Positions 801-63,589 of a DNA stretch of 64,000 bases are shown piece after piece. Both the position numbers and the translations under genes were made by a program. The stretch is taken from positions 15,742,589 through 15,806,588 of the forward strand of contig NC_081362.1 in NCBI RefSeq assembly GCF_030684315.1. The letters run 5' to 3'. Source of the DNA: Stegostoma tigrinum (Eukaryota). The notes beneath the pieces were generated by a model. It was given only the letters and a program-made list of their open reading frames with translations. It did not search any database and was not told where the DNA came from. Within the stretch, counting starts at the first letter, position 1. The number at the start of each line of letters is the position of its first letter.

Positions 801-1381
801 ATCTGCATTAGTTACCCAGACTTAGGACTGAATGGCTTACTGGGTGAAGTTAAGTCACTTTACTGTGGCTTTCAAGTCACGCAGACAGATTTCCTTCTCT
901 AAAGGGCAATAGTGACTCAGAATGTTTTATAAAAATGACAGCCTCATGACACTATTACTGAGACTTGTTTTATATTCTTGATTTATTAATTGGTTTTAAA
1001 TTCCACCATCTGCCAGGGGGAGATTTGAACCCATTTTCCCCTGGGGAAACCCATTTTAGCCAGGGCCACTGGTTATTAGTCTAGTGATATTACCATGACA
1101 CCACTAGCTACCCCTTAGAGGCTAAATCCTGACAACATTCCACAATAATACCAAAGACATGAAACGCAGAACTGGGTGTGCTCCCAGACAATATTCTTCA
1201 GTAGAGCTAAAGCACTTGAAGCTACATAGCCCTGGTATATCCTGTCTACAAACAGCAGAACAAATCTAATCTAGCTAATTATTCCCCCACCAGTCTACTT
1301 TTGATCATCAGCAAAGTGTTGGAAGGTGCCATTGACAGAGGTATCAAGTGATACTTATCTAGCAATAATCTGATCATGGAT

Positions 1382-1487
1382 GGTAGGAACTGCAGATGCT
1401 GGAGAATCTGAGATAACAAGGTGGAGAGCTGGATGAACACTTGCTGCTTGGCATGCTGTGTTCATCCAGCTCTACACCTTGTTACAC
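1382..1487. mobile_element. Penelope pLTR-derived fold-back element (centre deleted)
   Basis: Inverted arms taacaaggt..gatgaacac / gtgttcatc..ccttgtta. 12-bp TSD CTGATCATGGAT (1370-1381, 1488-1499). Confidence 0.8.
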
Positions 1488-2399
1488 CTGATCATGGATA
1501 CTCACTTTGGATTCCATCAAGGCCACTCAGTTATGTTAGTTCACCTCTTTTTGTATTGATCCCAACGTGGAATAAAGAATTTAATTGCAGAGATGAAGTG
1601 AGCGGGACTACCCTGAAATATCAAAGCAACATTTGACTGAGTGTGGTTTCAAAGGGGCCTAGCAAAACTGCAATCAATGGGAACCAGGGAGAAAACTTTT
1701 CACTGTTGAAGACCTACGTTGCATAAAGGAAGATACTGTAACTTATAGAGTCCAATTATTTCAGATCCATTTTACCCCAAGCCAAAAAAGCCAGTTTACA
1801 TCACAAGTTACCGGTCCCAACCAGCTTATATTCAGTCAAAGTCAGAGGTCCGGGGGTGTGCTAAGAGAATGAAGCCACAAGATTCTACAGTTTTGAACAA
1901 ACAATAATACATTGTTCTACAATATTAGATCAGTCAATACCTACAATACAAATGTTACTTATTTCTAACACTTCAAACTAACAACAATTGGAGGTGTAGG
2001 TAATTCCTCCCCTCAAATTTCCCTCATCATTTAATACCATCATGACTAATCTCATCTAGGCTTCATCTTCACTTCACTGCCCACTTCCTATAACCTTTTA
2101 ACACATTACACATAGTAAACACTAGTAATATACTACAATCGAACATTATATAATGCACATATGACAGCAAACACAATTACAATCGTTCCCACAGAATTTT
2201 CAGCAACTTGCTCCAGATGGTAATAAGAAAGAGTGCCATCTAACCTTGCCTGCTGTTCTTCCAATAAAGTTCTACATCCTATTATTTCCATAACCTCAGC
2301 TGAAACACAGGGCTCGAGTGTAGTTTGACCCTCAGACAGACCCACAGTGAGACCCTCAGACAGAGCAGTGACCCCCTCAGTGTGAACCTCAGGCAGATC

Positions 2400-4270
2400 A
2401 GCGTCCCCACTTGGTTTCACCTGCCCCCCCCCCACAACTGACCCTCACAGTTTCACCTCCCCCTCCCCTGGCACTGACCCTCACTGTCTCACCTCCCCCT
2501 CTCCCGGCACTGACCTTCACTGTCTCACTCCCTCACCCCCAGCAGTGACCCTCGCTGTCTCCCCGCAAACTCGTAACCCTCACTGCACCCCCACCCCAAG
2601 CACTGATCCTCACTGTCCCCTCCCCCACAACTGACCCTCACTGTCTCCCCTCCATCAGCAATGACCCTCACTGTCTCCCCTCCACCAGCACTGATCCTCA
2701 CTGTCTCTTCTCCCCCAGCATTGACCCTCAGTCTCCCTCCCCTCCTCTCCCTCAGCACTGACCCTCACTGTCTCTTCTCCCCCAGCACTGACCCTCAGTC
2801 TCCCCTCCCCTCCTCTCCCCCAGCACTGACCCTCACTGTCTCTTCTCCCCCAGCACTGACCCTCAGTCTCCCCTCCCCTCCTCTAACCCAGCACTGACCC
2901 GAACTGTCCCCCCTCCCCCAGCATTGACCCCCCTCCCCCAGCACTGACCCTCACTGTCCCCAGCACTGACCCCCACTGTTCCACCCTCCCCCAGCACTGA
3001 CCCACACTGTCCCCAGCACTGACCCTCACTGTCCCCCCCTCCCCCAGCACTGACCCTCACTGTCCCCCCCTCCCCCAGCACTGACCCTCATTGCACCCCC
3101 TTTCCCAGAACTGACCTCCCCTCCCCCAGCACTGACCCTCACTGTCCCCCCCTCCCCCAGCGCTGACCCTCACTGTCCCCCCCCTCCCCCAGCGCTGACC
3201 CTCACTGTCCCCCCCTCCCCCAGCGCTGACCCTCACTGACACCCCCTCTCCCAACGCTGACCCTCAATGTACCCCCCTCCCCCAGCACTGACCTCACTGT
3301 CCCCCTCTCCCCCAGCACTGACCCTCACCGTCCCCCCCAGCACTGACCCTCACCGGTCCCCCCCCCCAGCACTGACCCTCACCGTCCCCCCCCCTCCCCC
3401 AGCACTGACCCTCACCGTCCCCCCCCTCCCCCAGCACTGACCCTCACCGTCCCCCAGCACTGACCCTCACCGTCCCCCCCCCTCCCCCAGCACTGACCCT
3501 CACTGCCCCCCCCCAGCACTGACCCTCACTGTTCTCCCCCCCCCAGCACTGACCCTCACTGTCCCCCCCCCAGCACTGACCCTCACTGTCCCCCCCCCTC
3601 CCCGAGCACTGACCCTCACTGTCCCCCCCCCCCTCCCCGAGCACTGACCCCCCCCCCCTCCCCGAGCACTGACCCCCCCCCGAGCACTGACCCCCCCCCC
3701 CCCTCCCCGAGCACTGACCCCCCCCCCCCCTCCCCGAGCACTGACCCCCCCCCCCCCCCTCCCCGAGCACTGACCCCCCCCCCCCCCTCCCCGAGCACTG
3801 ACCCCCCCCCCCCGAGCACTGACCCCCCCCCCCCCCTCCCCGAGCACTGACCCCCCCCCCCCCCCCCTCCCCGAGCACTGACCCCCCCCCCCCCCCCCTC
3901 CCCGAGCACTGACCCCCCCCCCCCCTCCCCGAGCACTGACCCCCCCCCCCCCCCCTCCCCGAGCACTGACCCCCCCCCCCCCCTCCCCGAGCACTGACCC
4001 CCCCCCCCCCCCTCCCCCTCCCCCTCCCCGAGCACTGACCCCCCCCCCCCCCCTCCCCGAGCACTGACACCCCCCCCCCTCCCCGAGCACTGACCCCCCC
4101 CTCCCCGAGCACTGACCCCCCCCCTCCCCGAGCACTGACCCTCCCCCTAGAACCGACCCTCACTGACCCCTCCCCCCAGAACTGACCCCACCCCACAGAA
4201 CTGACCCCTCCCCCCAGAACTGACCCCTCCCCCCAGAACTGACCCCTCCCCCCAGAACTGAGCCTCACCG
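2400..4270. repeat. C-rich minisatellite, ~22-35 bp units with core CCC(A/GA)GCACTGACCC(TCACTGT)CnTC
   Basis: Dozens of directly visible tandem units with variable poly-C tracts. Unit type shifts along the array (cagcactga to gagcactga to cagaactga). Confidence 0.95.
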
Positions 4271-4289
4271 CTGACATTGTGCCGGAGTC

Positions 4290-4477: not shown

Positions 4478-5070
4478 GTGAGCCTGAGGGGGCAGTGAGG
4501 GCTATGGTAATGCCCCTCTGGTGGACGAGGCAGTGGGACGGGGCGGGGATTGATCCCCCCACCCCCGAGGGTGGGACTGAGTGGGCAGTGAGGGTGATTT
4601 GCCCTCCCGAAGGGTAGGGATGCATTGAGGGCCCTGACGGAATAGGGAAGGTGAGCGTGAATGGGTAGGTCTGAGGCTGGAGATGGGGTGCGAGCGGCCT
4701 AAGGGCGATGGAGTGTTTGAGGGTGAGAGAGGAGCGAGGGCACATTCCTGTCCAGTGATGCTGTACCAAGGAGGCCGATCCACTCTCTATTCGTGTGTTG
4801 GCGAGTAGTGAGAGTTCATCAGTCCTGCACCCTTTGGCCTTCCCTCAGAGACCCGGAAATGTTTCACTTATTTAACCAACCATAATGGTTTTTTTTAAGC
4901 TAATACTTTACATCTGAAGTCACTTTGTCGTGTTTTTTTTTAAAAAACACCCTTGTTTTTCTTCTCAATTTGTGCCGATCCTCTTTAATCTATCCTCTGA
5001 TTAATAATCTTCCTATCACTAGAAACAATGCCTCATTGTTTTTTCTGTCTTGGCTCATCATGAAGTTGAA

Positions 5071-5250
5071 GATAACACGGTGTACAGGTGGATGAACACA
5101 GCAGGCCAGGCAGCATCAGAGGAGCAGGAAAGCTGACCTAGCTCCAAATGTCAGCCTTCCTGCTCCTCTGATGCTGCTTGGCCTGCTGTGTTATTCCACC
5201 TGTACACTGTGTTATCCCTGATTCTCCAGCATCTGCAGTTCCTACTAACT
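5071..5250. mobile_element. Penelope pLTR-derived fold-back element
   Basis: ~65-bp inverted arms plus a 3' tail; degenerate TSD atga..ttgaagat (5060-5073, 5251-5264). Confidence 0.8.
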
Positions 5251-7029
5251 ATGATATTGAAGATGTTTGTCATGCTTCCTTGCTTATCTCAGGCTATTTG
5301 CTGCACCCCAACCCCCATATCACTGATCTCTCCAGGCTGGTGATACTCTTTTTCTTGTACCCTCTCCAACCTTGAAGTATGATGCCTGGAGTTGAGCACA
5401 TTGTTCTAGCTAAGGATTAATTAACTTGCATAGTTTAGTACAAGGCTCTTCTTTGTAGACTCTGTCTGAGCAGCAAATAGAGATTTCTTCCTGCTTTGTT
5501 AATTTTTTTCAATATTCTCTGCTTTGATCAAAGATTTGTCTCCATAATCCCAGATCTTTGTTATTGTACCTATGTTTAAGTTTCACCATTTAATTTGTGT
5601 TACCTTATTCATTCCAACTTTTACACTTCTCTGCATTAAATTTCACCTACTATGTGAAAATAGAGTTAATTTGCTCTCCATTTTCCTGAGTCTGCATGTG
5701 TCCTCCTGACAACAGTGTCTGTTTTCTTTTGCTGCTTTCAAGCCTTGATTGATTGGCACATATTGCAATTATATGCAAGTTCAGGTAATTATATCAACAT
5801 ACAGGTGTGTGCCAAATGTACAGCTATAATGGTGTATCTGTATATCAGGACATATATCTATTATTCGTGTAAGTGCTGTTTCTTGATATCAAGGCACCAG
5901 ATACTACAACTGTCCTTACTTAAGACAGAATATACTTGCTTTGGAAGTAGCTCAGGGAACATTCATTTGGCTGATTCCTCAGATGAATGGGGATCAGATT
6001 GGGCCTGAACTTGTTGCAGTTTGTTAGAAAATGATGCCATTTTATTGAAACATATATAATTCTGAGGTGACTTGGCAGAGGTGGTCTTTCCCCTATCTGG
6101 TTAACCTAGAACCCAGGAGTACAGTTTTTAAAATAAGAGGGCTCCTGTTTAATACGGGAGCTGGGGGGAAATTTCTTCTAAAGGTGCTAGAGTTTGGAAT
6201 TATCTTCCACAGAGAAGTGAAGACAAGATCATTGAGTATCTTGATTTGAGGATTAATATTATTTAATAATGGAACAGGATGGATGGACAGAATGGCTGTC
6301 TGTGTCAATTTATCTTATTAGCACATAATTATAAGATTTTAATTTATAAGGCATGTATACATTTAATGTTTCTTGATGTATTTTCTGGGCATTAAAAATA
6401 ATTTAGATATCTAAGTTTTTGGATCCCAGTCATCATTGTGAACATCTGAAATGTGGGGAACTGCAGAAGCACTTTTGTCCCTTTTTGCACCTGTAGGGAT
6501 TACGTGTGTGAGCCTTTGACTGATGGGCTAGCCCTGGCTGCTCAGATAGCAAGCAATATTGCGAAGAAAGGTTCAGTCCCAGAGTGTTGTCACCTCTGCT
6601 TTCCCCATTCAGTTCTCCCTACTCTACTGAACGTTTCTAACGTTGGTGCCTCCTTGTTTTAATTCCCAGCATCTGCAGCTTTTTAGTTTCTATTCTATCT
6701 GTTTAGCCATTACAGCTGGTCCAGCTCAGCACTTACCTAGGGTGCAGCATTGGCTTTTCTGTTATGTCCTTGAGCCAAAGCAGAATTACCCACTCAGCAC
6801 TGTTGTATAATTCAAGTTTTGAGGATGAATGTGCCAACCTTGCCTCTTGCATGTCAGTTAATTAACAAAACATGCAGACAGTCATATTTAGTTGCCATTC
6901 ACCTTATTTGTTATTTTTAAGACTTGTTACCCACATTTTCAGCAGCTAATGCAATCGACAGATCATCCGGGGATGCACCTAGGATTGCAACTGTGACAAG
7001 TACATCCCAAACTGCATTCTCGTGTAGCT

Positions 7030-7570
7030 TGTCTTGTTCAAAAACAAAGTGGCTGGAAAAGCTCAGCAGGTCTGGCAGCATCTGTAGAGGAGAAAACAGT
7101 GTTCATGTTTCGGGTCCGCTGACCTTTCCTCAGAATGGACGGTGGCTGGGAAAATGTTAGTTTATATGCAGAAAATAGGGAGGTCTGTCGGGTAGGGTAT
7201 AAACAATAGGATAGAGCCCAGAGTCAGAGACACAGTTGGACAGGCAAAGGAGTTGCTAATGATCAGGCTGGGAGGATGAATAGTTGTTAATGGGGACTGT
7301 TAGTGACTAACAATGGGGGGGCGGCGGCGGTGTGTAGTGGCAGGCTATGTGGTAACAAGGCTTGGTGTGTGGCGTAGGGGGGCTAGGACATGGGAGAGTT
7401 TAAGCCCTAAAATGATTGAACTCAATATTGAGTCCAGAGGGCTGTAGGGTCCCCAAGCGGAAGATGAGGTGTTGTTCCTCAGCTTGTGCTGGGCTTCACT
7501 GGAAGACTGTAGCAAGCCGGAGACAGAGATGTTGGCCGGAGAGCAAGGTGGTACACTGAAGTGGCCACTT
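7030..7570 (-). mobile_element. Penelope-like element 3' end (GIY-YIG C-terminus + pseudo-LTR) in COX7A intron 1
   Basis: Minus strand reads ...GLLQSSSEAQHKL.EQHLIFRLGTLQPSGLNIEFNHF. Hammerhead-like core CTGAGGA...CCGAAAC at ~7105-7133. Confidence 0.75.
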
Positions 7571-7625
7571 CAATTAGTTCATTTGGGAAACTACATTTTC
7601 ATGAAATTGCTGTTTTCTCCCTCAG

Positions 7626-22282: not shown

Positions 22283-22478
22283 AATTTGATTGGTTAGAGA
22301 AATTGAGATTAAAGACAGGATTTTATATAAATCTGAAGTTGCCTTCTCTTCTGGTGTCACAAATAGGCTGACAGACAAAGGTCAAAGCCACAAAGTTAAA
22401 GGTTGGCTCAAACAGACCAGCAGGTTCAGTAATGCAACTGGGGCTTGAGTTAAGACATTCAGCTAAGATGGTGTCTTT

Positions 22479-22747
22479 GATAACACAGTGTGGAGCTGGA
22501 GGAACTCAACAGGTCAGGCAGCATCAGGGGAGCAGGAAAGCTGACGTTTCAGGTTGGGACCCTTCTTCAAAAAGGTTTCTCTCCCTCTGTACCGTCTCCT
22601 TGTGATTTTTCTGTACACTATTTCTGAAGAAGGGTCCCGACCCAAAATGTCAGCTTTCCAGCTCCTCTGATGTTGCTGGCCTGCTGTGTTCCTCCAGCTC
22701 TACACTGTGTTATCTCAGATTCCAGCAATGGCAGTTCTTACTATCTC
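22479..22747. mobile_element. Penelope pLTR-derived fold-back element
   Basis: ~95-bp inverted arms, ~50-bp spacer, perfect 14-bp TSD ATGGTGTCTTTGAT (22468-22481, 22748-22761). Confidence 0.85.
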
Positions 22748-23399
22748 ATGGTGTCTTTGATGTTCTGTCTACAGAAACTAATATGTTTTCTAGTGGATAA
22801 CCGTGGAGACATTTGCACCAAGTCAAGCAACAATGGCTTTTGATGGTCTCCTTAGTTAAGAAATGGCTGGGGTTGACATCTTGTCTGCTAATCCTTTGTG
22901 TTGGCTCAGCACTAATATTCATACAATGCAAGGAGTATCACAGGAGGCGATGAGTTCACTTTTGTGCAAGTAATTGACAAAAATTTCTAGAATCAGTCAA
23001 CTTGTTGCTTCCGTGTTTGATAGCAGCCATTTCAAAATCTGGCAAGAGGCCATTTTTAAAAATAAATCAAACAAGGCAATATAGGTCTTAAAACAATTTA
23101 ATATCTTTCTATCTCCTGGGTATAACAGTAGGTAGAAGTTATTCTCATCAGTAGAAGGATTGAGGACCAGAGGATACAGATTTAAGGAAGTTGCAAACTA
23201 ATCATAGGGAGTGTTTAGGATCTCCAATGCATTGCCTGAAAGCAAATTCAGTCAGGGCATTCAACTGGGAATTGGATTATCTTCTGAAAAGGAAACAATA
23301 CGGAGCAATGAGAATGAAGCAGGAAGTTACATTAAGTGAATTACTCTTACAGATGCCTGGCATGAACACAATTGTGCAAATAGAAACATAGAGCAAGGA

Positions 23400-23611
23400 C
23401 AGTAGGAACTGCAGATGCTGGAGAATCTAAGATAACAAGGTGTGGAGCTGGATGAACACAGCAGGCCAAGCAGCATCAGAGGAGCAGGAAAGCCGGCGTT
23501 TTGGGGCCAAACCCTTCTTCTGAAGAAGGGTCCAGATCTGAAATGTCAGCTTTCCTGTTCCTCTGATGCTGCCTGGCCTGCTGTGTTCATCCAGCTCTAC
23601 ACCTTGTTATC
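23400..23611. mobile_element. Penelope pLTR-derived fold-back element
   Basis: Arms meet at cccttcttc-tgaagaaggg; perfect 13-bp TSD CATAGAGCAAGGA (23387-23399, 23611-23623). Confidence 0.85.
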
Positions 23612-23677
23612 ATAGAGCAAGGATTATTGATTTGGCCTTTTCTGCCATCCAAAATCAATCTCAACACTATAATTTAT

Positions 23678-23974: not shown

Positions 23975-24233
23975 CACTCTAACCTTAGATGCTTTTCATA
24001 TTCAAAATTTTATTTGCTAACTTGAAATCCCTGCAGCTGGTCTGCGATCCCATTAGCCTGAGCTTCATGTAATATTATCATCAGTGAGATGACCACTACA
24101 CCACCCTCCCTCTTTGCCCAGCTGCTATGAGTTCTATGATTCTGCTCTTCAAGAACTGCAACTTTCACAAGCTGGTGCCCAGAACCTGCAGTTCAATGAG
24201 AGTACCTGAAGATGGCAGTATGGGCACACAGTT

Positions 24234-24359
24234 CTGAAGAAGGGTCTAGGCCCAAAACGCCCGCCTTCCTGCTCCTATGATGCTGCTTGGCCTGCTGTCT
24301 TCATCCAGCTCCTGTTATCTCAGATTCTCCAGCCTTACATTGGCAGTTCCTACTAGCTC
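24234..24359 (+). mobile_element. Single-arm Penelope pLTR copy
   Basis: Starts at CTGAAGA; TSD tggg(ca/tg)cacagttc (24221-24234, 24360-24373). Confidence 0.75.
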
Positions 24360-24659
24360 TGGGTGCACAGTTCGCTGCTGTTACAAATTAAATATGATGA
24401 TTTCAGCAGGTCCAGCAGCACCTCTGAAGAGGTAAACAGTCAGCATTTTAACTCTCCTTCAGAATCCCTTGCCTTCACATTGACCTTACTGGCTACTAAG
24501 GTCATGGTTCACAGGGTTTTTGTGGATCCTGCCCTCCTGCACAGCTCTGGAGGTGGAATGGTTACAGCAGACACCTCAAGATGCAGGAGGAGTACCACCA
24601 ACACTGCCCTCGCAAGACCCCGCAAATCCACTGGGAAAAATGACGTACCAGCACTAGGC

Positions 24660-26213: not shown

Positions 26214-26224
26214 GGAAAATATCA

Positions 26225-27490: not shown

Positions 27491-27569
27491 TTAACAGTTC
27501 AACAACATAATCTCTACACGCCTGGCCTACTGGACTTGTGCTCCTCGCTAGGGTTTGAGCTTGCTCATA

Positions 27570-28260
27570 GATAGTAGGAACTGCCGATGCTGGACAATCT
27601 GAGTTAACAAGGTGTAGAGCTGGATGAACACAGCAGGCCAAGCAGCATCAGAGGAGCAGGAAAGCTGATGTTTTGGGTATGGACCCTTCTTCAGAAATGG
27701 GGGAGGGGAAGTGGGCTCTGAAATAAATAGAGAGAGGGGGAAGGCGATGATAGAAGGTGGATAATGCAGCAGATGGGTGGAGAGAAGACGGACAGGTCAA
27801 GGAGGCGGTGATGAAGCCAGTGAAGGTGAGTGTAGGTAGGGAGTTAGGATAGGTGTTGGTCAGTGGAGATAGAGGGGTGTGTAGGTGGGAGGGAAGATGG
27901 ACAGGTCAAGGAGGCAGAGATGAGGCTAGAAGGTGGGACCTGGGTGTGTGGGTTGATCAGTTAGGTGGGAGAGAAGATTGACAGGTCAAGGAGGCGGGGA
28001 TGAGAGGGGCTGGTCTTTGGTTCAGGTCGGGGGTGGGGAGATTTTGAAGCTTGTAAAGTCCACATTGAGACCATTGGGCTGCAGGGTTCCCAAGCGGAAT
28101 ATGAAGTGCTTTTCTTCCAGCCTTCGGATGGCATCGTTGTGGCAATGCAGAAGGCCCAGGATGGATGCGTCATCCAGGGAGTGGGAGGGGCGCTGAAGTG
28201 GTTCACAACTGGGAGGTGTTGTCGTATGTCATGAACCAAGCATAGGTGTTCCACAAAGCT
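27570..28260 (-). mobile_element. Penelope-like element 3' end with pseudo-LTR
   Basis: FVEHL..V.D.RQHLPVVNHF, then frameshifted LGLLHCHND..RRLEE.HFIFRLGTLQPNGLNVDF; pyrimidine-rich UTR; degenerate hammerhead and terminal repeat at 27570-27695. Confidence 0.8.
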
Positions 28261-28894: not shown

Positions 28895-29199
28895 AATCCC
28901 TACAGTGCAGAAAGAGGCATTTGGATCCTTGAGTCTGCTCTGACCCTCCAAAGAGTATCCCACCCAAATCCAGCCCCCTACTCTATCTCTATAACCCTAC
29001 ATTTCCCCATGGCTAATCCATCTAGTCTGCACATCCCTGGACACTATGAGCAATTTAGCATGGCCAATCTATGCTAACCTGCACATCTTTGGACTGTGGG
29101 AGGAAACTGGAGCACCCGGAGAAAACCCACACAGACACAGGGAGAATGTGCGAACTCCACACAGACAGTCACCCGAGGCTGGAATCGAACCTGGGACCC
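28895..29199 (-). mobile_element. HE1-type SINE, head truncated and fused to a Penelope fragment
   Basis: V-domain and B box are present; A box is missing at the junction. Confidence 0.8.
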
Positions 29200-29695
29200 A
29201 GCCCAATGGTATCAATGTGGACTTCATCAGCTTCAAAATCTCCCCTTCCCCCACCGTATCCCACAACCAGCCCAGTTTGTCCCCTCCCCCCACTGCATCA
29301 CACAACCAGCCCAGCTCTTCCCCTCCCCCCACTGCATCCCAAAACCAGCCCAGCCTCTCTCTGCCTCCCTAACCTGTTCTTCCTCTCACCCATCCCTTCC
29401 TCCCACCCCAAGCCGCACCTCCATTTCCTACCTACTAACCTCATCCCACCTCCTTGACCTGTCCGTCTTCCCTGGACTGACCTATCCCCTCCCTAACTCG
29501 CCACCTATACTCTCCTCTCCACCTATCTTCTTTTCTCTCAATCTTTGGTCTGCCTCCCCCTCTCTCCCTATTTATTCCAGAACCCTCTCCCCTTCCCCCT
29601 CTCTGATGAAGGGTCTAGGCCCGAAACGTCAGCTTTTGTGCTCCTGAGATGCTGCTTGGCCTGCTGTGTTCATCCAGCTTTGCACTTTATTATCT
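29199..29695 (+). mobile_element. Penelope-like element 3' end with intact hammerhead core
   Basis: QPNGINVDFISFKI, three ~39-bp internal repeats, CT-rich UTR, CTGATGA-AGGGTCTAGGCCC-GAAAC-GTC at 29603-29630. Confidence 0.8.
29603..29630 (+). ncRNA. Minimal (Penelope-type) hammerhead ribozyme core
   Basis: CUGAUGA box, GC-rich helix II (GGGUC/GGCCC), GAAA box, palindromic ACGU helix III and GUC cleavage triplet. Helix I is weak; activity not shown. Confidence 0.55.
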
Positions 29696-34540: not shown

Positions 34541-35027
34541 ATAAGATAAATATTTGAACAAAAAAGTTATGATATAGATCTAATTCCATGGGATCAGGTA
34601 GGGGGCTGAATGGCCTCCTGCTGTTCCTGTGTTCCTAGACTGGGAGTCATCCCTGCCAGAGAAAATAAATCAGGTTACAAGAAGTGTTTTGATGCAGAGG
34701 CTTTTATGGCAATGAGTCATTCAAAATTGCATATTTCAAATAATCTTAAAAAGCAATTTTTTTTAGTGCTAAGTCCCTGGTTAGCTGCCATTATTCATTT
34801 ATTTAATTCAGGTTATTAAGTTACATGTTTCTTTGGAGGACTGATACTTACATAATGCATTACACAACTTCAGGGTGTACCAAAGTGCTTCACATCTGAT
34901 GAAAGTCTTTTGAAGAGAGCTCACAAACATAGCGTAGAGAAATACAGTAGTCAGCTCCCACAAACAGCAATGAAATTATAGTGATTGTAATGTGGTCAGC
35001 CAGTTATAAAACGTGAGATTGTATTAG

Positions 35028-35140
35028 AGATAATAAGAACTGCAGATGCTGGAGAATCCAAGATAACAAAGTGTGAAGCTGGATGAACACAGCAGGCCAA
35101 GCAGCATCTTAGGAGCACAAAAGCTGACGTTTTGGGCCTG
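35028..35140 (-). mobile_element. Single-arm Penelope pLTR copy, apparently inside an LTR-like relic (~34987-35301)
   Basis: Same aactgcagatgctggagaatc...gacgtttt sequence as the other copies. Confidence 0.7.
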
Positions 35141-37451: not shown

Positions 37452-38344
37452 AAGAGCTAAAAAGGTCATAGGGTTAGAGTTTATATCGCTAGGGAGTGGC
37501 AAGGACATGGAGGAATTCAGGGGCAAAAATGAGAATTGTATAAATACCAACATTGGCATTGGATGGGAACCAATCAAGGTTACAGAGCACAGGAGTGGTG
37601 GATCAAAGGGATTTTACACACTTTGGAATTTTGGCAGCAGAGAGGAGTGCCCATCAGAAAATCAAAACTTTATTAGGCTTCAATATCAAATGAGCAGAAA
37701 AATTTGCCAACCAAATGTTGAAAAGGCCATTTGACATCGCTTTTGGGCTGCTGTTACAATCTTTGTTTCTACGTAACTGACTTTACCCTTGCAGTAGTCT
37801 GGACCAGACTGTTTGCTAGCTTGGGATTAAATTTCACTCTGAAATGAGTTTCTAATCACATATCTACAACATCATCAAGATAGTCCGTTCACATCTCCCT
37901 GAAAATGACTCATTTTATTTTTGCCCCAGACATTCTGTTCTGAAACCCTCTTCTCAATGTTTGTCACCACCAGCCTTGTCTTTTCTAATATATTCTTAGC
38001 TGGTTTCCCACGTGCTTTTTGATCTACATTGATCCCCAGTGAAGAAAAGCCCTCAATTTTTAAATTGTCATGCTTAATTTCAAATCTTTTCAATGGTTTC
38101 ATTCCTGCCTTTCTCTGTGATCCCACCCAACTGTCCCCTGAGATATCTGTGCTCAATTAATCTAGTTTCTTGAGCATTCACCATTTTAATTGGTCAACCA
38201 GTGTCTTCAGTTGTTAAGATCCCAACCTTTGGAATTCCCTCCTTGCATCATCCACCTCTCTACTTTTTTCACTCCAAGGACACTCGTTAGAGCCTACCAC
38301 ATTGGCCAAGCTTTTGATCACCTGACCTAATACATCCAATATGG

Positions 38345-38420
38345 GATAACAAAGTGTGGCCAAGCAGCATCTTAGGAGCACAAAAGCTGACGTTTCGGGC
38401 CTAGACACTTCTTCAGAAAA
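38345..38420 (-). mobile_element. Short Penelope pLTR copy
   Basis: gataacaaagtgtg..gacgtttcgggcctagacacttcttcag. Confidence 0.7.
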
Positions 38421-40900: not shown

Positions 40901-41359
40901 ACACTGACTTCACTTTTAACGCTGGTTGTTAAGGGTACCAGAGAATGGCTGGACTCTGAAATCTAGGTTGCGTTTGAAAGGGCTTTTTATTTTGTTTAAT
41001 CTGTTTACTGTCGTTTCCAAGGGACCCGGTTCTGAGTGCGGAGTGCCACACTCAAAAAATCTGAAAGGAAAACAGAAAGTACTGAGAGTACTCAGCAGGT
41101 CTGGCAACCGATGTGGAGAGAGAGAGAGAGAGAACAGCGTTTCAGTTCAATGAGCTTTCATCAGAGGGGCTCCTGAGAGAATGAAATAAGACATGTCTAA
41201 GAGGATCTAGGGCTATAACCCAGAAAGATAGTTAGTAAAGGATGCACATTTTTATTTGTGGAGCTGTACATCACCCACATGCACATCCTCAACTCACAAC
41301 TGCAGTTTCAGTCTGCTGCTGTGAAATAAACAGGTTAATTCCCAATACCTGCATGCAAT

Positions 41360-41770: not shown

Positions 41771-41850
41771 CTGTCTACCACACAGACCCAGTGTGTGCAT
41801 GTGCGTGCATCAACACATACCCTCCTTAACCTAGCACTAACTGCAGTCTC

Positions 41851-42066
41851 AGATAATGAGGTGTAGAGCTGGATGAACACAGCAGGCCAAGCAACATCAA
41901 AAGAGCAGAAAGGCTGACGTTTCGGGCCTAGACCCTTCCGTTTCTGAAGAAGGGCCTAGGCCTGAAACGTCAGCCTTCCTGCTCCTCTGATGCTGCTTGG
42001 CCTGCTGTGTTCATCCAGCTCTACACCTTGTTATCTCAGATTCTGCAGCATCTGCAGTTCCTACTA
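41851..42066. mobile_element. Penelope pLTR-derived fold-back element
   Basis: ~90-bp inverted arms plus tail; degenerate ~21-bp TSD ctag.actaa..gcag.ctca (41831-41851, 42064-42084). Confidence 0.85.
41944..41971 (+). ncRNA. Minimal hammerhead ribozyme core
   Basis: CTGAAGA-AGGGCCTAGGCCT-GAAAC-GTC at the centre of a fold-back element. Confidence 0.5.
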
Positions 42067-42210
42067 GTACTAAACGCAGGCTCACTGTTGCCCCTGCTGA
42101 AGCCACTTGGCTCAACCAAAACCAGGGCTTGAACTAAGGAATGTCACGGCTTAGCTGCCATTCTGTCTGTCAAGTCAATTGCCATGCTAAAGGATCCAGA
42201 TGATACTACA

Positions 42211-42341
42211 GTGATAATGGGAACTGCTGATGCTGGAGAATCCAAGATAATAAAATGTGAGGATGGATGAACACAGCAGGCCCAGCAGCATCTCAGGAGC
42301 ACAAAAGCTGACGTTTCGGGCCCAGACCCTTCATCAGAAAG
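42211..42341 (-). mobile_element. Single-arm Penelope pLTR copy
   Basis: TSD cagatgat(a/c)ctaca (42197-42210, 42342-42355); intact hammerhead core. Confidence 0.8.
42310..42337 (-). ncRNA. Minimal hammerhead ribozyme core
   Basis: Minus strand reads CTGATGA-AGGGTCTGGGCCC-GAAAC-GTC. Confidence 0.5.
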
Positions 42342-42962
42342 CAGATGATCCTACACTTAATTTTCTTTTGAACCGATCAATATTTGATGCTGCATACCAT
42401 TAATGCTTAAACCTTTCAGACTGTAATTAAGCTTCTGCCCTTGCTCGTGTTAATGACACTAGAAAGAAGTGTCAGGCTCTGAAGGCGGGTGTGTATAATT
42501 CAGACCTTGCTCTGCTACACCAGACAATCTAAAAGGGGAAGCTTTGTAATTACACAATATCTCACACTCCTTTCTCTTCACCTCCCCTTTCGTTTGTCTC
42601 CTGTTAAAGACCGGGACTCCTGCTGTGGCAATAATTCACTGACAGAATTTCAGCCGTGCTGCCAACCTTCAGGGAGGGGAGCATGGATGCTGAGTGGGCA
42701 GACAGGCTATTTGACAACTAGGGGCATCACTGGTGAACTCCACTTGTTTACCTATAGCCAGCTTCCATTTTTTTTTCCTGTGACTGTCCCTGACTCTTGT
42801 TTACAAATGCTGGATAATTCTCTTTCCTCCCTTTCTGTTGCCTTGGATTTGGGAGATGGGTCAGGACAACCCAGCATGTACAGGAACAGTAACTTTGGGG
42901 TTTTACTGGCTTGTAGCGATGCACCTTCAGCTGGAGGTGGGTGGTGCTGGTGTGAATCAATC

Positions 42963-48390: not shown

Positions 48391-51300
48391 GTCCCTCTAG
48401 TGGGACAGAAACTGGTTTCATTGGATTGTTAATTCCACACTTTATTGAATTCAAATTCCATTTGCCCTGGTGGGATTTGAACATAACCTGGGAATTTCAG
48501 ATGACCAGCCCAGTGACAATGACTCCTCAAAGTTCAGCCCTGTGTCCTACAGAGAAAACCTTCCCCTGAGACGGCAGTGTGGATTGAGAGATAGTCGGAA
48601 AACAGAAAGCAAGGAGTATGAGGAAATGCGGCCGCTGTTTAGCTCAGTGCAGCTCCTGGCATTCCCAAGGGATTTCTCTTGATCTCTGCAGATGTAGGTG
48701 ATGTAACAGACATGGGTGGATCCCAGTCAGCAGAGTTTGGGGCCTTTTATAGGGAAGAGAGGAGAGAGATGGAAGAGGCACGACCTAGGTTTATCTACGC
48801 TATCAATGTGCAGTTTTAACTCCTACTAGGTGTGAGAGACCGAGGTATTAATAGCTGTGTTCACTAAAACAGAGGTTAACAGCTAATTAACAGAAGTGTT
48901 CAAAATTCTGGGAGGGTTGGAAAATTAAACTAGTGACAGATATTTTTCCATTGGACCATTGGACCATTGGAATAGAATGAGTATCTAAGCTTTTATGCAT
49001 GTCCTGTCACTCAGTAAGATCTTGACTGGTTGATGAATCTATAATGGGAATGACACAGAATGTGGTCTATTGCAAGTTGAATGGGAGATGTGAGCAGTAG
49101 ATCATTTGCAAACCAACTGACATTGTGGAAGCGGTATTGTCACATGGAAGGTGGCAGTTTCAAAAAAAGATAGGAAGCCACAGCTTGCTGCTTAGAAAGT
49201 CCAACCGGAGAGTTTCAGTGGAATTTGTAAATAGCAGGTTTGTGCTTGACTGACTGAAGTAAACTGCAAGTGGATTACTGAGCAAGCAGATTGAAAAAGG
49301 GCACAACAAATTTGATGTATTTGCTGTTCAAAACATTTACCTGGTTGCCATTCAGTGGCCTTCTGAGTGTTAGGGTTTGTATTTTAAGGATAAATATTTG
49401 GTTTTATTGGCAACATTAGGGATGGGATTTGTGTCAGATTAAAAGTTCTCTGGAACCCCCACCTTGCTACTAGAATCGGTTTTTGTCCAAGTGAAAAGAC
49501 CCACTACAGCTTTCTCAACATAACTGGGTGTGTCCTGAGATAATAAACAAACTACAATTGAAATCTGTGACGCATTTTCTCTGATTGGCAACCCCTGTCC
49601 CGTTCTATTTTTCCCATCCATGAATTCTGCTATAATTTACAGGATCATGATGGTTTCTTTGTCCTCCTGGGACCAAACCAAGGTATGCCAGAGCTCTCAG
49701 GAATTCACTTTGGTTCTCAGCATCCTTGCTATTCTCTGAGGAATGAAATTTCTTGAGGCCTTTCCACCAGCATCCTGTGAAGCAGCCTTCCAACTGGCCT
49801 TCTAGCACCTCACCACCATGGATACCCAACTCAAGCAGGAGTCTCACTGAACTCTCGGTTAGTGCCCCTAAGCTAGAATAACAGTCCTGGTTTCTGGAAG
49901 CTCTCTGCTTCTGGCCTTCAAACCCTTCCAAACCCCAACTTATGGAAGCGTTCTGTCTTTAGCTCCCAGGTCCCAATTGCCTGTTTTTGTGAAAACAGTC
50001 AGAGGGATAAATTTAAAACAAAAGACATACCACCTCACGTATCCTATTTGTGTAGCAACATAGTAAAGCTCAGATGTTCTAGATAGACATCTAATCCAGC
50101 TAACATATCTTAAAACATCCCTTTGATTCAAAGGCCAGCGAATAATTTAACCACCTTATGGAGACAGCCACAGACATCCTGTCTCTGCTAAGATACAGAG
50201 AACAAGCTCATGGTTTAGCATCTTGTTTATTTCCACCCCTGACATCTTTAAGTAAAAATGGACTATTCCCTGAACTGCATTTGTTTTTTTGGTTACCAGA
50301 ATCTCAACTCAGGGGCTTCCATTAGCTTCCCTTTAAATTGCAATTGCCAACCTAAAATTTATATTCCTATAACAAGTGAATCATGAAATTAGACATTTGA
50401 CAGTAGTGATCACTTGTGAAATGGAGGAAGTAAAACGGCCACTTTATACACAGTAAGTTCCCACAAGTAATAATATAAATCAATTGCTAGTGATATAGGT
50501 TGAGATTGAGGGAGCAACTTTGGCGACATAAATGGAGAATTTCCTGTCCTTCAGTAGATCTCACTGTTGTATCTTATCAATTTCAATACTTCAGTTGAAA
50601 GCCACCTGTGCAATGAGGCACTTCCTCTACACTGTATGGGAACAGCAGCCAAGATGAAATGCCCATGGCCTTGTAGTTGACTCAGAGGTGAATATGCTCC
50701 CCACTGAGCTAATGCTTTCTTCCATTGTGAGGATACACTTGCAATCAGCAGAGACACAAAAGCATTGGGATTAGGTTCAAATCCATGACATTGTACCAAG
50801 AACGTAGAAGCAGAAGTAGGCCATCTTGTCTGTTGAGTGAGCCCCACAATTCAATAAGATCACAATCGATCTGTTTGTGTTCGCATCTCCTCTTCTGTAT
50901 CTGTACCCTATAAACTTCGATCTTCTCTGCTCTTGTCCATAAACAACCTACCTCATTCAGCTTTAACTAAGTTTAAAGTGCCAGCTCCCGCTACCTTCTG
51001 GGGAAGAGAATTGCTACACTTAACAACTCTGAGGAACAAAAACCTCCTCATTATAAAATAAAACAAAGAACTGTGGATACTGGAAATCTGAAACAAAGAC
51101 TAGAAATTTCTGGAGAAACTCAGCAGGTCTGGTGGCCTCTGTGGAGAGAAAGCAGGGCTAACATTTTGAGCTCAGTGACCCATCTTCAGAACTTCTTCAG
51201 ACTCTCTGAAAAGCTAACTCTCCAAAAATCTCCTCAAGTCTCTCTTACCTTGCAGGTGTAAACTATATTCCCCAGTTTTAGTCTCCCCCTTTAAAACTAC

Positions 51301-52783: not shown

Positions 52784-54480
52784 CAGTTGGCTGTAAAGTA
52801 CATCAGGACCTGCTCAGGATGTTAAAGGTACTGTAAGAATGGAAGTTCCTTCTTTCAGAAAATAACTTTGCTCACTCACTGATCCATTAAGTCGACAGGG
52901 AGCAGAGATTGGAGACGGGGCTGTAATACTGTTGATTCTGTCGCACACACTCACTCCCAAAGGGTGCAGTAAACACATCCAGAGACAACAGTAAAGGTCA
53001 GTCTCCAAACCTTGAGTGTGATTCCAACCCCACAGTCAGATCCCATTGGCCTCACTCATTGTTCCCTGGAATGTTATTGAGCGTATGCATGCACCAGCTG
53101 CCGCCTTGGGGCAGGTGTCCAGGGGCAGTTAGGGGGCTGCCCCCAGCAGGATCGTGTGAGGGGGCTGGGAAAACTGAAAGAACTGCCCACCTCTCCCTTC
53201 ACCTTGAGTCTTAAGGAAATGGCTTTGATTCGGATTCTTTGCTGGAGGGAGCTCAACCTTGTTGTGAGCAGTGGCTCTCGAGAGCCGTCATTTAGCTAAT
53301 CCTGTGCCCTGGCACGATGGAATTTACCGGATGGCATGCTGATTATTGGGTTTACAAAATGGCTCAGTGACAGCGTGGATCTTCAAAGTCCATTAGAACT
53401 CAGAAATGGAACATCTACTTCCTACAAACTCTAGAAAGGAAAGGCCAGGTGAAGGTTTTCGAACCGACTGCTCCACACTCAGTTGATTTTTTTTCCTGCT
53501 GTTTTCTCTTATCCATGTGGCGTTACTGGCTAGGCTAGCATTTATTGTCAATCCCTAATTGCCCAGAGGGTAGTTAAGAGTCAACCACATTGCTGTATGA
53601 CTGAAGTCACATGGAGACCAGAAGATGATTTCCTTCCCCAAGTTCCATTAATTCGTAGCCATAATTAGATGCTTAGCCCCAGATGTTTCCTGTTCCTGGT
53701 TGACATAGTAGCTCAGCGGTTAGCACTGCTGTCTCACAGCACTGGGAACCTGGGTTTGATTCCAGCCCTTGGGCTGCTGTCTGTGTGGAGTTAGCACGTT
53801 CTCCCTATGTCCGTGTGGGTGTCCTCTGGGTGCTGTGGTTTCTTCTCAATTTCCAAAGATGTATAGGTAAGGGTTTGTCTATAGGACAATAGGTCGATAG
53901 GATTATCCATAGTTTCTGGGGATGTGCAAGCTGGGTGGGTTAGCTATGGGAAATTCATGGACAGGGGTCTGGGTCTGGGTGGGAGGGTCGGTGTGGACTT
54001 GATGGGCCAAATGACCTACTTCTGCACTGTAAGGATTCTATCTCTACAGTGCTTTTTTTCAGAAACTGGACCTACATTCCATATTTCTGCCATTGTCGTA
54101 TTTTGTTGCTGGGTCCCCCAGAGATCTCTGGATTACTAGGCCAGTGATAATACCACGAGGTCATTGCCTCCCTTACACACACTTTCCAACTATCGCAGTT
54201 GGCTATTAACTGTCGGAGGCCAATTTCTTGCTAAGGTTGGAATCACACTCAAGGTTTGGAGACTGACCTTTACTGATGTCTCTGGATGTGTTTACTGCAC
54301 CCTTTGGGAGTGAGCGTGTGTGACAGAATCAACAGTATTACAGCCCCGTCTCCAATCTCTGCTCCCTGTCGACTTAATGGATCAGTGAGTGAGCAAAGTT
54401 ATTTTCTGAAAGAAGGAACTTCCGTTCTTACAGTACCTCTAACATCCTGAGCAGGTCCTGATGTACTTTACAGCCAATTG
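52784..54480. repeat. Inverted duplication: arms 52784-53029 and 54235-54480 (246 bp each)
   Basis: Manual alignment shows 6 mismatches and no gaps; spacer ~1.2 kb. Confidence 0.95.
53697..54041 (+). mobile_element. HE1-type SINE
   Basis: A/B boxes, V-domain, tail. Confidence 0.8.
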
Positions 54481-57810: not shown

Positions 57811-58652
57811 ACAGCAGCATGACCCACCGTGGAAAATGCTCTGGCTCCTTAGTCCCGCCGTACTTGGGCTCATCACAAGAGGAAATGATTTAGTTACTCT
57901 GGTCCTCCAATTTACCTTTCTAATGGACTCAGGTTAACAGAAAACACAGAACAGGTTCCGGTACCTAATAAGAATTATTGCAAATAAATAGTAACAACAG
58001 TCAGAACAAAACTATGAACTACCAACATCTCACTCCAATGGTTGAAACTCTAACTCCCTTTTAAAACTCCTATACACACATACAAACGGATACAACTCAT
58101 CAAAAGAGTTTGTCTTATTGTCGGAGGGAAACACTGGGGAAACACAGTTCAATGGTGCCAGTCCATAGAAATTGATGAGATGTTCCTTTAGGCCCTCAGA
58201 CCTTCTGTTCTCCTTTTTGGATTCTTTCACTTGTTTGCAGAAGGAGCAGGGTGAATGCTACAGTAATTGTACAGTCTTTGAGTTCCTAGTTAAAGGCAAC
58301 AGCTTATAGCAACTGTTGAAAGAAGATAATTGGCTTTCTTTGGGTTTTAGTTATTTTCACTGCAGAGAGATAGAAACACAGAGCCCGGTATTTCACTGTC
58401 TGGAGCTTCTCACACTATATCGTAAACTCCCAAGCTGTTTCGCTGTCCAGGAGTCAGTCAGAGAGCAGTTGTCAAGCTGATCACATCTGTCATTCACAAC
58501 AGGTCACAGTTACGCAAACCGATCGGCACATATGCTGGTGCCACGGCGTCTTGTCTCTCCTGCCCCCACTGTTTGCAAAGCAGCAATGTAAACACAGCTC
58601 ACAATGAGTTCCAGCATCTTGTGCAGCAACTCCTTCCACACCTTGCTTTAAA

Positions 58653-59513
58653 ACTGTCATTCTTTCTTTTTAATCCTCATTTCTCAAACAAAAAGGTGTG
58701 ATTCTCACGACTGGAGATGTTTTCAGACAGAATTTTTATAATAGGAAGATAGCAACGGCAGTGGCCATTCAGCTCCTCAAGCCTATTTTACCATTCAGTG
58801 AGATCGTGTCTGATCTTTGGCCTAACTCCATTTACCTGTCTTTGGTCCATGCCCCTTAATTCCTTTGCTTATCAAAGATTTATCTTTCATACTTAAAATT
58901 AACAACAAATCCAGCAACCATTGCCAATTGTGGGAGAGAGTTATAAACCTCTACTACGTTTTGCATATAAAATCTTTCCTCCTGAATGGGCTGACAATAA
59001 TTCTGAGATCGTGCCCCATTGTTCTAGAATCCCCAACCGTTATCTTTATCTAGCCTGCTTTTTCCTATTAATAGCTTGAAGACTGTCATTCTTTCATTTT
59101 AATCCCCATTTCTCAAACAAAAAGGTGTGATTCTCACGACTGGAGATGTTTTCAGACAGAATTTTTATAATAGGAAGATAGCAACGGCAGTGGCCATTCA
59201 GCTCCTCAAGCCTATTTTACCATTCAGTGAGATCGTGTCTGATCTTTGGCCTAACTCCATTTACCTGTCTTTGGTCCATGCCCCTTAATTCCTTTGCTTA
59301 TCAAAGATTTATCTTTCATACTTAAAATTAACAACAAATCCAGCAACCATTGCCAATTGTGGGAGAGAGTTCTAAACCTCTACTACGTTTTGCATATAAA
59401 ATCTTTCCTCCTGAATGGGCTGACAGTAATTCTGAGATTGTGCCCCATTGTTCTAGAATCCCCAACCGTTATCTTTATCTAGCCTGCTTTTTCCTATTAA
59501 TAGCTTGAAGACT
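58653..59513. repeat. Tandem direct duplication, 429-bp unit x2
   Basis: Units start at 58653 and 59082; near-identical ORFs at 58865 and 59294 are offset by 429. Confidence 0.95.

Positions 59514-60567: not shown

Positions 60568-60569
<2 letters not shown>

Positions 60570-60648
<79 letters not shown>
60570..60648. repeat. (AC)n microsatellite
   Basis: Pure AC run of ~39 units. Confidence 0.95.
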
Positions 60649-60651
<3 letters not shown>

Positions 60652-62599: not shown

Positions 62600-62945
62600 A
62601 GGTGATGGCCTAGTGGTATTATTGCTAGACTATTAATCCAGAAACTCAGGTAACATTTTGGCATTGGGGTTTGATCCCTACCACGGGAATTATCTGGAAT
62701 TAAGAATCTGATGACCATGAAACCATTGTTGATTGTCCATAGAAACTCAGCTAGCTCACACTAATGCCCTTCAGGGAAGGAAATCTGCCATTGTCATCTG
62801 GTCTGGCCTACATGTGATTCCAAACCCACAGTAATGTGGTTGACTCTCAACTGCTGTCTGGAATGGCCTCACAGGCCACTCAGTGTAAGGCGCCTAGGGA
62901 TGGGCAATAAATGCTGGCCAACCAGCAACGCCCACATCCCATGAT
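62600..62945 (+). mobile_element. Second tRNA-derived SINE family (other copies ~870-1110, 43800-44145, 53515-53680, all minus strand)
   Basis: A box TGGCCTAGTGG, B-box-like GTTTGATCCC, 3' tail gggatgggcaataaatgctggcc..cccacatcccatga shared with the old LINE. Confidence 0.7.
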
Positions 62946-63170
62946 AGGAGCTCATCCTATCATTATCCATAGCTCCGCACTGTAACATCCACACAAAAAG
63001 TTCCCATTATTACATCAACACATTTACCTTGTGGAAGCATCACCATTACTCCCATTGTGAAAATTTAATTAGCTAGAGGACTAAAAGTCATCACCACGAG
63101 CAACCAATAGCAGTTTGCGCTGGGGAACAGGATAAGGGGGATGGTTAAAAGTAATTGGTGTGTATCTGTT

Positions 63171-63263
63171 AAAAGAGATAACAAGATGTAGAGCTGGATG
63201 AACACAACAGGCCAAGCAGCATCAGAGGAGGAGGAAAGCTGAGGTTTCGGGCCTAGACCCTTA
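63171..63263 (-). mobile_element. Short Penelope pLTR copy
   Basis: Same family sequence; 8-bp TSD TATCTGTT (63163-63170, 63264-63271). Confidence 0.7.
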
Positions 63264-63589
63264 TATCTGTTGTTGCTTCCCTAATGAAACTTTGACTACA
63301 TAGACAGTTTCCTCTATTGTTGTAAGGAAGGTGTATGTCTATCTTCAGTTGTCATTCTGTGGGCTAGGGTATGTAACTGCTGATAATTTAAGACCTATCT
63401 TCCAAACCTCCTTTAAAATTTTTCCAACCTTCCGTTCATACTCTCCCAACCCTGCTTTAACTCTTCTTCCTCATCATCGAGGGAGAGAAATCCTGAATTG
63501 GAATCCCTGTTTGCAAATTTATATTCATAACAATTATCATGTGGTAACCAAAACTGTTGGGTGGAAAACCCTGCCAATAGATCCTGGTA

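What the first reader, a model, noticed from the sequence alone, without database searches (positions are those of the whole stretch)
1370..63271. Dispersed family of short Penelope-derived mobile units carrying hammerhead-ribozyme cores, each inserted independently with a TSD
Seen: at least 12 related copies (1382, 5071, 22479, 23400, 24234, 27570, 29600, 35028, 38345, 41851, 42211, 63171). The best copies read CTGA(T/A)GA-AGGGTCTAGGCCC-GAAAC-GTC. Eight have readable 8-21 bp TSDs, e.g. ATGGTGTCTTTGAT, CATAGAGCAAGGA and CTGATCATGGAT. Established: Penelope-like element pseudo-LTRs carry minimal type I hammerheads whose palindromic helix III (here ACGT) supports dimeric folding. Inference: these ~90-270 bp protein-less units form a retrozyme/SINE-like family mobilised in trans by a Penelope RT-GIY-YIG protein; such coding remnants lie in cis at 27570-28260 and 29199-29695.
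Basis: partly seen in the sequence, partly recalled or inferred. Interest (0 to 1): 0.7.

Follow-up and report, generated by a model that had tools for sequence, protein, structure and literature searches.

The report
Run-off stubs of a Penelope retrotransposon
These short repeats are real, very abundant pieces of the front end of a Penelope-like jumping gene, carrying a ribozyme motif already known from such elements; they likely arise when copying runs off the start of the parent's RNA, often from both cut DNA strands at once, so they would be dead by-products and not a self-spreading ribozyme family.

Summary
All 12 copies are present and 8 have 8-14 bp TSDs. Only 5 of 12 keep every hammerhead core base and 4 lack CUGA. 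The unit is the 5' UTR (pLTR plus ~33-nt tail) of a Neptune-type Penelope-like element (PLE). In 1.44 Mb sampled from the genome there were 228 insertions (~0.5 million genome-wide). Length is not random truncation: 88 of 192 arms reaching the hammerhead stop at -8..-1, about 40 times the upstream rate. That is where ORF-bearing copies begin, ~31 nt after a TATA-like box, and not at the predicted cut site (+28). Short copies form no lineage of their own and lack the TATA-like box, so SINE or retrozyme membership is not supported. Of 82 classifiable inverted pairs, all have one tailed and one tail-less arm, and arms share length class and subfamily. This fits two priming events on one RNA. The structure and motif are published. 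I found the statistics in no paper searched, but this scan noted the same reading on other shark DNA. Ribozyme activity is untested.

The parts
1370..1499 (.). Inverted two-arm insertion 1382-1487: tailed arm (-) 1382-1440, tail-less arm (+) 1442-1487; 12-bp TSD; no hammerhead core
5066..5264 (.). Inverted two-arm insertion: tail-less arm (-) 5070-5137, tailed arm (+) 5146-5256; 8-bp TSD; CUGA absent
22468..22761 (.). Inverted two-arm insertion of the older subfamily: tail-less arm (-) 22479-22573, ~46-nt spacer, tailed arm (+) 22620-22747; both arms start at -3/-4; cores mutated; 14-bp TSD
23387..23623 (.). Inverted two-arm insertion: tailed arm (-) 23400-23524, tail-less arm (+) 23518-23611, overlapping at a near-palindromic centre; 13-bp TSD
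24227..24373 (+). Single tailed unit starting at about -2; G12 mutated; TSD of at least 8 bp
27569..28259 (-). 5'-truncated PLE copy: GIY-YIG C-terminal remnant 28257-28010, 3' UTR, TATA-like box 27729-27722, unit with tail; core mutated
29199..29695 (+). 5'-truncated PLE copy (subfamily B): last ORF codons, 3' UTR, unit ending at the tail-less site
29569..29576 (+). TATA-like box TATTTATT, 34 nt before the CUGA core; promoter role inferred
   Evidence: sequence; conservation in long copies
29600..29632 (+). Best minimal type I hammerhead motif: CUGAUGA, unpaired A, 4-bp helix II with tetraloop, GAAAC, GUC; predicted cut after 29630; helix I only 2 bp
35026..35140 (-). Single tailed unit starting at about +14; no CUGA; no TSD found
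38343..38419 (-). Single tail-less unit with an internal deletion; core intact; no TSD found
41831..42073 (.). Inverted two-arm insertion: tail-less arm (-) 41841-41938, tailed arm (+) 41938-42066 with core at 41944; 10-bp TSD with 1 mismatch
42197..42355 (-). Single tailed unit 42211-42341 starting at -3; intact core; 14-bp TSD with 1 mismatch
63163..63271 (-). Single tail-less unit starting at +6; no CUGA; 8-bp TSD
7037..7570 (-). 5'-truncated copy of a second PLE family (C): GIY-YIG remnant, TATA box, hammerhead core at 7133

Best explanation
The units are copies of the first ~95 or ~130 bases of a Neptune-type Penelope-like element, likely made when reverse transcription primed inside the 5' UTR runs off the RNA's start, and they would be dead ends rather than a family that spreads itself. 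Positions are counted from the C of CUGA. Shown: the unit is the element's 5' UTR (ORF ATG at about +164) and also its 3' terminal repeat; 3' ends fall at two sites, about +92 (S) and +125 (L, tail); 5' ends pile up at -8..-1; a TATA-like box lies at -35/-34; each classifiable inverted insertion has one L and one S arm of the same subfamily and, nearly always, the same length class. Inferred: transcription starts at about -4 from the promoter at the end of an upstream copy's 3' UTR. The GIY-YIG domain nicks both strands, usually 11-16 bp apart. One nick primes at L and the other at S on the same uncleaved RNA. Both cDNAs run to the 5' end or stop earlier, and are joined head to head. If only one survives, a single arm results. 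Priming in a downstream repeat gives the long coding copies. The hammerhead motif rides along uncut.
For: Parent: RT motifs, CX4CxxC linker and GIY-YIG with CCHH; Pfam RVT_1 E=2e-4 and GIY-YIG E=6e-3 on one real copy, both below the curated cut-offs. 5' pile-up: 88 of 192 arms reaching -1 stop within -8..-1 (46%), against 1.1% per 8 nt upstream. Of 30 copies that run on into the ORF start, 12 begin at -7..+7, 6 begin further than -40, 11 at +14..+86, and 1 had no unit hit. TATTTA at -33..-37 in 9 of 17 (A), 47 of 53 (B) and 10 of 13 (O) long copies. A second family with a different upstream sequence has a TATA-like box at similar spacing in the 6 long copies printed, an Inr-like TCAGTT, and the same 5' peak (41 of 96 hits at -5..0). 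82 of 82 classifiable pairs are L+S, with 2 of 84 unclassifiable. Length class is shared in 80 of 84 pairs (Fisher p=1e-11). No pair has one A arm and one B arm. Arm mismatch is 9.0% against 16.1% shuffled and 11.8% shuffled within subfamily. The S arm reaches further 5' in 33 pairs, the L arm in 29, with 20 ties. No short-only lineage. PMC11167929 shows in vitro, for an anole PLE, cleavage and extension of both strands, two internal RT start sites that define the tail, and no need for hammerhead cleavage.
Against: No RNA 5' end was mapped; the start site rests on motif spacing, and the TATA/Inr consensus and -30 spacing are recalled knowledge. Subfamily B has no Inr adenine at -4. D. virilis Penelope has a TATA-less internal promoter (PMC2377424 passages), so the stubs might still be transcribed. 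Gene conversion between inverted arms could add to their similarity. A more sensitive search of single-arm insertions found 9 classifiable small second arms, of which 1 was L+L (L083, old subfamily); that search has a false-positive rate of 4 of 300. TSDs were found for only 23 of 102 single-arm insertions against 67 of 89 two-arm ones. [quoted passage not shown] Short:long ratios differ between subfamilies (A 45:14, B 55:45, O 31:13).
Confidence: 0.7

Rival explanations
1. The short units are a non-autonomous SINE- or retrozyme-like family: they are transcribed themselves, processed or circularised by the hammerhead, and copied in trans by the PLE protein.
For: Defined ends and about 0.3 million short insertions (141 of 228 in the sample). 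Core positions are somewhat more conserved than other invariant positions in long arms (24/826 vs 266/5237, p=0.005). Two tandem arrays with a hammerhead in each repeat occur in the sample (L243, L228), and the L243 junction recurs at 3 other loci. Preprint 10.64898/2026.07.22.740005 derives animal retrozymes from PLE pLTRs.
Against: No short-only lineage. No peak of 5' ends at the cut site: 11 arms at +26..+30 against 7.4 expected from neighbouring positions. The 12 window copies are single or inverted, not tandem. Short units lack the TATA-like box. G12 decays like any CpG (16/83 vs 48/249). Helix I is 2 bp and is not predicted to form. The tandem arrays are a different structure that starts at -51 or further upstream.
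Confidence: 0.08
2. The stubs are parent-derived as in the best explanation, but the 5' end at -3 is set by the hammerhead region itself (an RNA fold or bound protein that blocks a 5' exonuclease or stops the RT), not by a transcription start.
For: The boundary coincides with the 5' strand of helix I in both families. PMC11167929 shows the PLE protein is needed for hammerhead cleavage, so it likely contacts this region.
Against: An RT would be expected to stall before a fold, not after copying it (general knowledge). Two families with different upstream sequence keep a TATA-like box about 30 nt upstream. No stable fold at the boundary is predicted.
Confidence: 0.12
3. The inverted arm comes from self-priming (fold-back), possibly on an antisense template, with the endonuclease trimming the tail from one arm, as hypothesised in PMC3846280.
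For: Many centres are palindromic or overlap by microhomology. Arms share variants. Fold-back gives one template by construction.
Against: Fold-back of a sense cDNA primed at the tail cannot give a tail-less arm longer than the tailed one, yet 15 pairs have the S arm more than 20 nt longer, e.g. -981 vs -270. Single arms of both types exist in similar numbers (56 S, 44 L). Some centres hold unrelated spacers (22573-22620). The antisense version is not excluded, but needs antisense 3' ends exactly where a sense start is predicted.
Confidence: 0.1

Closest known systems
EN+ PLE insertions with inverted pLTR, one-sided 30-40 bp tail and TSD (PMC8557442, PMC3846280, PMC2377424; passages seen)
   Same: 5' truncation, partial tandems, head-to-head inverted copy, tail on one side, variable TSD, solo pLTRs; a TATA plus Inr in a pLTR was noted for Adineta Pen2a.
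   Different: Here most insertions are reduced to the terminal unit alone, with a sharp 5' boundary and about half a million copies. The strict L+S rule and shared arm length were not in the passages read.
[quoted passage not shown]
   Same: CUGANGA and GAAA boxes, an unpaired base before helix II, G10.1-C11.1, a palindrome in place of helix III, mostly single dispersed motifs, some in opposite orientation.
   Different: Helix II is 4 bp and helix I 2 bp (as in D. virilis) instead of 4-5 bp; family C of the same genome has a 4-bp helix I. Not assayed.
PAc Poseidon element of Anolis (Frangieh 2024, PMC11167929; parts 1-2 of 4 read)
   Same: Two RT start sites flanking the tail, both strands cut and extended, uncleaved RNA as the template.
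   Different: PAc is Penelope/Poseidon clade with the ORF starting inside the hammerhead; here a Neptune-type ORF starts about 40 nt after the tail.
Non-LTR retrozymes (bioRxiv 10.64898/2026.07.22.740005; parts 1-3 of 5 read, supplements closed)
   Same: Protein-less, hammerhead-bearing, derived from PLE pLTRs; monomer derivatives are described.
   Different: Defined there as tandem repeats with a hammerhead in at least two consecutive units; the 12 window copies are single or inverted. Two arrays elsewhere in the genome (L243, L228) do fit that pattern.
L1 twin priming (recalled; search listing only)
   Same: Both target strands prime cDNA on one RNA and give an inversion with TSD.
   Different: As recalled, L1 arms cover non-overlapping parts of the RNA; here both arms copy the same stretch from two fixed sites about 33 nt apart.

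Membership tests
EN+ Penelope-like element, Neptune type (parent) | Single ORF with RT and C-terminal GIY-YIG containing CCHH | tested here: met
   Motifs in majority sequences and real copies; weak Pfam RVT_1 and GIY-YIG hits
EN+ Penelope-like element, Neptune type (parent) | CX2-5CxxC linker between RT and EN (Neptune, Nematis; absent in Penelope/Poseidon) | tested here: met
   CX4CxxC; definition from PMC8557442 passages
EN+ Penelope-like element, Neptune type (parent) | RT phylogeny placing it in Neptune rather than Nematis | not tested
   No reference RTs were available; the clade is assigned by motif only
EN+ Penelope-like element, Neptune type (parent) | pLTRs, direct or inverted, with an optional 30-40 bp tail and variable TSD | tested here: met
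   161 S and 152 L ends of 316 arms; TSD 8-19 bp; partial tandems
Minimal type I hammerhead of PLEs | CUGANGA and GAAA boxes, NUH site, extra base before helix II, palindromic 15.2-16.2 | tested here: met
   Kept in subfamilies A, B, O and family C; intact in 111 of 191 arms covering the core
Minimal type I hammerhead of PLEs | Helix I (4-5 bp typical, 2 bp in D. virilis) | tested here: inconclusive
   U-A plus a second pair read as U.G 62, C-G 35, U-A 17, other 4; third pair U/C mismatch in 91 of 99; predicted pairing 0.00
Minimal type I hammerhead of PLEs | Self-cleavage as monomer, dimer or with protein | not testable with these tools
   No assay; only contigs were available
Non-LTR retrozyme | Tandem repeats with a hammerhead in consecutive units | tested here: not met
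   0 of 12 window copies; 2 such arrays seen among 228 sampled insertions
Non-LTR retrozyme | Template RNA delimited by hammerhead cleavage or circular | tested here: not met
   5' ends peak at -3, not +28; DNA evidence only, circular RNA itself not testable
SINE-like non-autonomous family | Own lineage propagating from short master copies | tested here: not met
   Nearest-neighbour short fraction 0.639 vs 0.634; all three subfamilies have short and long copies
SINE-like non-autonomous family | Internal promoter carried by the unit | tested here: inconclusive
   The TATA-like box lies 30 nt outside the short units; internal promoter activity not assayed

The most novel reading that the evidence does not exclude
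Penelope-like elements integrate by asymmetric double priming: one RNP uses both target nicks, one at the tail-end start site and one at the start site ~33 nt upstream on the same RNA, which explains the inverted pLTR and the one-sided tail. Run-off to a TATA/Inr-defined start makes strong-stop-like stubs, the commonest product. Partial tandems that keep the promoter (as at L243) become small self-propagating tandem families, that is, newborn retrozymes.
Probability: 0.5. Interest if true: 0.55.

Novelty: new member of a known kind. Interest (0 to 1): 0.32.

Why it matters
As a ribozyme-SINE discovery it does not hold. The family is still useful: how PLEs build their inverted ends and tails is described as unresolved in the papers read, and about half a million insertions give a natural data set with sharp rules (one tailed and one tail-less arm, shared template, fixed 5' end). 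These rules can be tested directly in the existing in vitro PLE assay. They also warn that dispersed hammerhead monomers counted as retrozyme offspring may be PLE by-products.

Tried and rejected
Rfam scan: no hammerhead model matched; hairpin-driven miRNA hits were all below gathering scores. Random 5' truncation: rejected. Cleavage-defined 5' ends at +28: not seen. A type III hammerhead register that would cut at -4: no fitting helix III partner on reading the sequence. An untemplated G marking a cap at -4/-5: not enriched. Short-only lineage: none. Fold-back of a tail-primed sense cDNA: rejected. RNA evidence: no RNA holder listed, only contigs guessed to be RNA; laying 4 of the 14 runs on 29420-29760 showed no start or end sites, which contigs cannot show. 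The earlier-note leads on poly(A) and in vivo cutting could not be checked. ViennaRNA does not model the hammerhead core, so one search is weak evidence. The L228 array junction matched only at its own locus. Pfam found nothing for the 27961-28335 frame or for 6 of 8 other window ORFs. Search of earlier findings by sequence gave nothing.
Full report
Observation. All 12 positions hold related sequence. Eight have TSDs of 8-14 bp; four have none that is convincing. Five insertions keep all core bases, three have mutated cores and four lack CUGA. Five insertions are head-to-head inverted pairs. Rfam shows no hammerhead match.

Parent element. The window lies in a 3.2-Gb genome; a shark is my inference from size and repeat content, and earlier notes say the same. 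Searches in the genome gave overlapping copies of a roughly 3.6-kb element. It has one ORF with RT motifs, a CX4CxxC linker and a GIY-YIG domain with CCHH. By the definitions in PMC8557442 (passages) this is Neptune-type; no tree was built. Counting from the C of CUGA, the unit spans -3 to +125, the ATG follows at about +164, and the unit recurs after the 3' UTR.

Sample. I fetched 144 stretches of 10 kb at evenly spaced positions on large contigs, chosen blind. Four stretches next to the window were left out, 12 requested stretches did not exist, and small contigs are unsampled. The sample held 228 insertions with the unit, 1.58 per 10 kb (bootstrap 1.38-1.79), or about 0.44-0.57 million in the genome; 141 were short, and the family covers 8.1% of the bases. 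Arms within 70 bases of a stretch edge were dropped, leaving 316.

Ends. 3' ends are bimodal: 161 at about +92 (S), 152 at about +125 (L), 3 other. This is the known optional tail, and both sites sit in a TATCTC micro-repeat (sequence). 5' ends peak at -3: 88 of 192 arms reaching -1 stop in -8..-1, against 1.1% per 8 nt upstream. But the peak is not at the predicted cut (+28): 11 arms at +26..+30 against 7.4 expected. Of 30 copies that continue into the ORF, 12 begin at -7..+7. Long copies carry TATTTA at -33..-37 in 66 of 83 cases. A second family has a TATA-like box at similar spacing, TCAGTT across the boundary and the same peak. The simplest reading is a transcription start at about -4; it is inferred from recalled promoter consensus, and subfamily B lacks the Inr adenine.

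Inverted pairs. Of 84 pairs, 82 are classifiable and all are L+S. Both arms are short in 67, both long in 13 and mixed in 4. No pair joins an A arm to a B arm; 2 are O-A and 11 have an untyped or mixed arm. Arms differ by 9.0%, against 16.1% shuffled and 11.8% shuffled within subfamily. In the first 96 stretches plus the window and its 4 neighbouring stretches, 48 of 330 rare variants were shared with the partner arm against 8.4 expected. Either arm can reach further 5'. This fits two priming events on one RNA. Gene conversion could inflate the similarity but not the shared length class. One L+L case appeared in a more sensitive search. TSDs were found in 67 of 89 two-arm, 23 of 102 single-arm and 9 of 18 complex insertions.

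SINE or retrozyme test. Subfamilies A, B and O all have short and long copies with near-identical majority sequences. Short arms are not each other's nearest neighbours more than chance (0.639 vs 0.634), although the short:long ratio differs by subfamily. Short units start downstream of the TATA-like box. None of the 12 window copies is tandem. Two arrays in the sample (L243, repeat from -51 to +240; L228, a longer repeat) do carry a hammerhead and the TATA-like box in each unit. The L243 junction recurs at three other loci; the L228 junction only at its own. These fit the retrozyme pattern of the 2026 preprint, but they are not the units of this finding.

Hammerhead. The motif matches the minimal PLE type of PMC4209133. 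Loop II and N7 vary between subfamilies while the boxes stay, and two helix positions change without losing the pair. Core positions mismatch less than other invariant positions in long arms (2.9% vs 5.1%, p=0.005), which can reflect selection on source elements; G12 decays like other CpG sites. Helix I is 2 bp, and in subfamily B the core is predicted to pair with the downstream UCAG instead (0.74-0.93 in two of three B sequences, 0.10 in the third). Activity is unknown. PMC11167929 found cleavage only with protein and no need for it in insertion. Dimer cleavage of small PLE hammerheads in Lunse 2017 is recalled, not read.

Literature seen. PMC4209133 and PMC11167929: parts 1-2 of 4. bioRxiv 10.64898/2026.07.22.740005: parts 1-3 of 5, no supplements. 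PMC8557442, PMC3846280, PMC2377424, PMC6155905: passages. Six searches listed no paper describing this shark family, the -3 pile-up or the L+S rule; subscription papers and Repbase/Dfam entries were not searchable. Earlier notes of this scan (525 findings held the first set of words) reach the same reading on other shark DNA. I consulted them after my own tests; they are not independent support.

Verdict. A real, abundant by-product of a known class of element. The retrozyme/SINE label is not supported. The value lies in the insertion rules, which make an open question of PLE mechanism testable. Interest 0.32.

Noticed in passing
L243:4984-6183 and L228:6765-8432: Young tandem arrays of a PLE piece spanning the 3' UTR end, hammerhead and ORF start, near-identical repeats, inverted with one L and one S end. 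The L243 junction recurs at L264, L265 and L270. Candidate newborn retrozymes that keep the TATA-like box.
   Followed up: partly
window 7037-7570(-), 41082-41170(-), 51110-51191(-): Second PLE family (C) with a 4-bp helix I (AGUU/AACU), GUU cut site, TATA box and the same 5' pile-up; 96 hits in the sample plus window. A better candidate for an active ribozyme than the family of this finding.
   Followed up: partly
window 31112-34566(-): Near full-length LINE with an esterase (GDSL lipase, E=4e-15) ORF1 and RT ORF2 in pieces; CR1-like is my recalled label.
   Followed up: partly
window 52784-54480: 1.7-kb element bounded by 246-nt inverted repeats, 98% complementary, no ORF above 84 codons inside.
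   Followed up: partly
window 29074-29198: A tRNA-like SINE (recalled resemblance) is cut off exactly at the 5' junction of the PLE copy at 29199; its missing part does not resume after 29695.
   Followed up: no
L141:4206-4445, L110:8989-9408: Centres of some insertions repeat short pieces of the RNA's 5' end or jump from -3 back to about +200, suggesting template jumps at run-off.
   Followed up: no
L085, L157, L130: Copies 97.6-98.8% identical over ~450 nt of the RT region: a recently active subfamily.
   Followed up: no
window 2415-4260, 20221-20902, 26232-26791, 58645-59513: C-rich minisatellite, 24-bp and 16-bp tandem arrays, and a 429-bp tandem duplication at 98% identity.
   Followed up: no
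element position about +170 (e.g. L190): A second CTGAAGAAG lies just inside the ORF start, followed by a GAAA-like box without a helix II; probably chance or coding.
   Followed up: no
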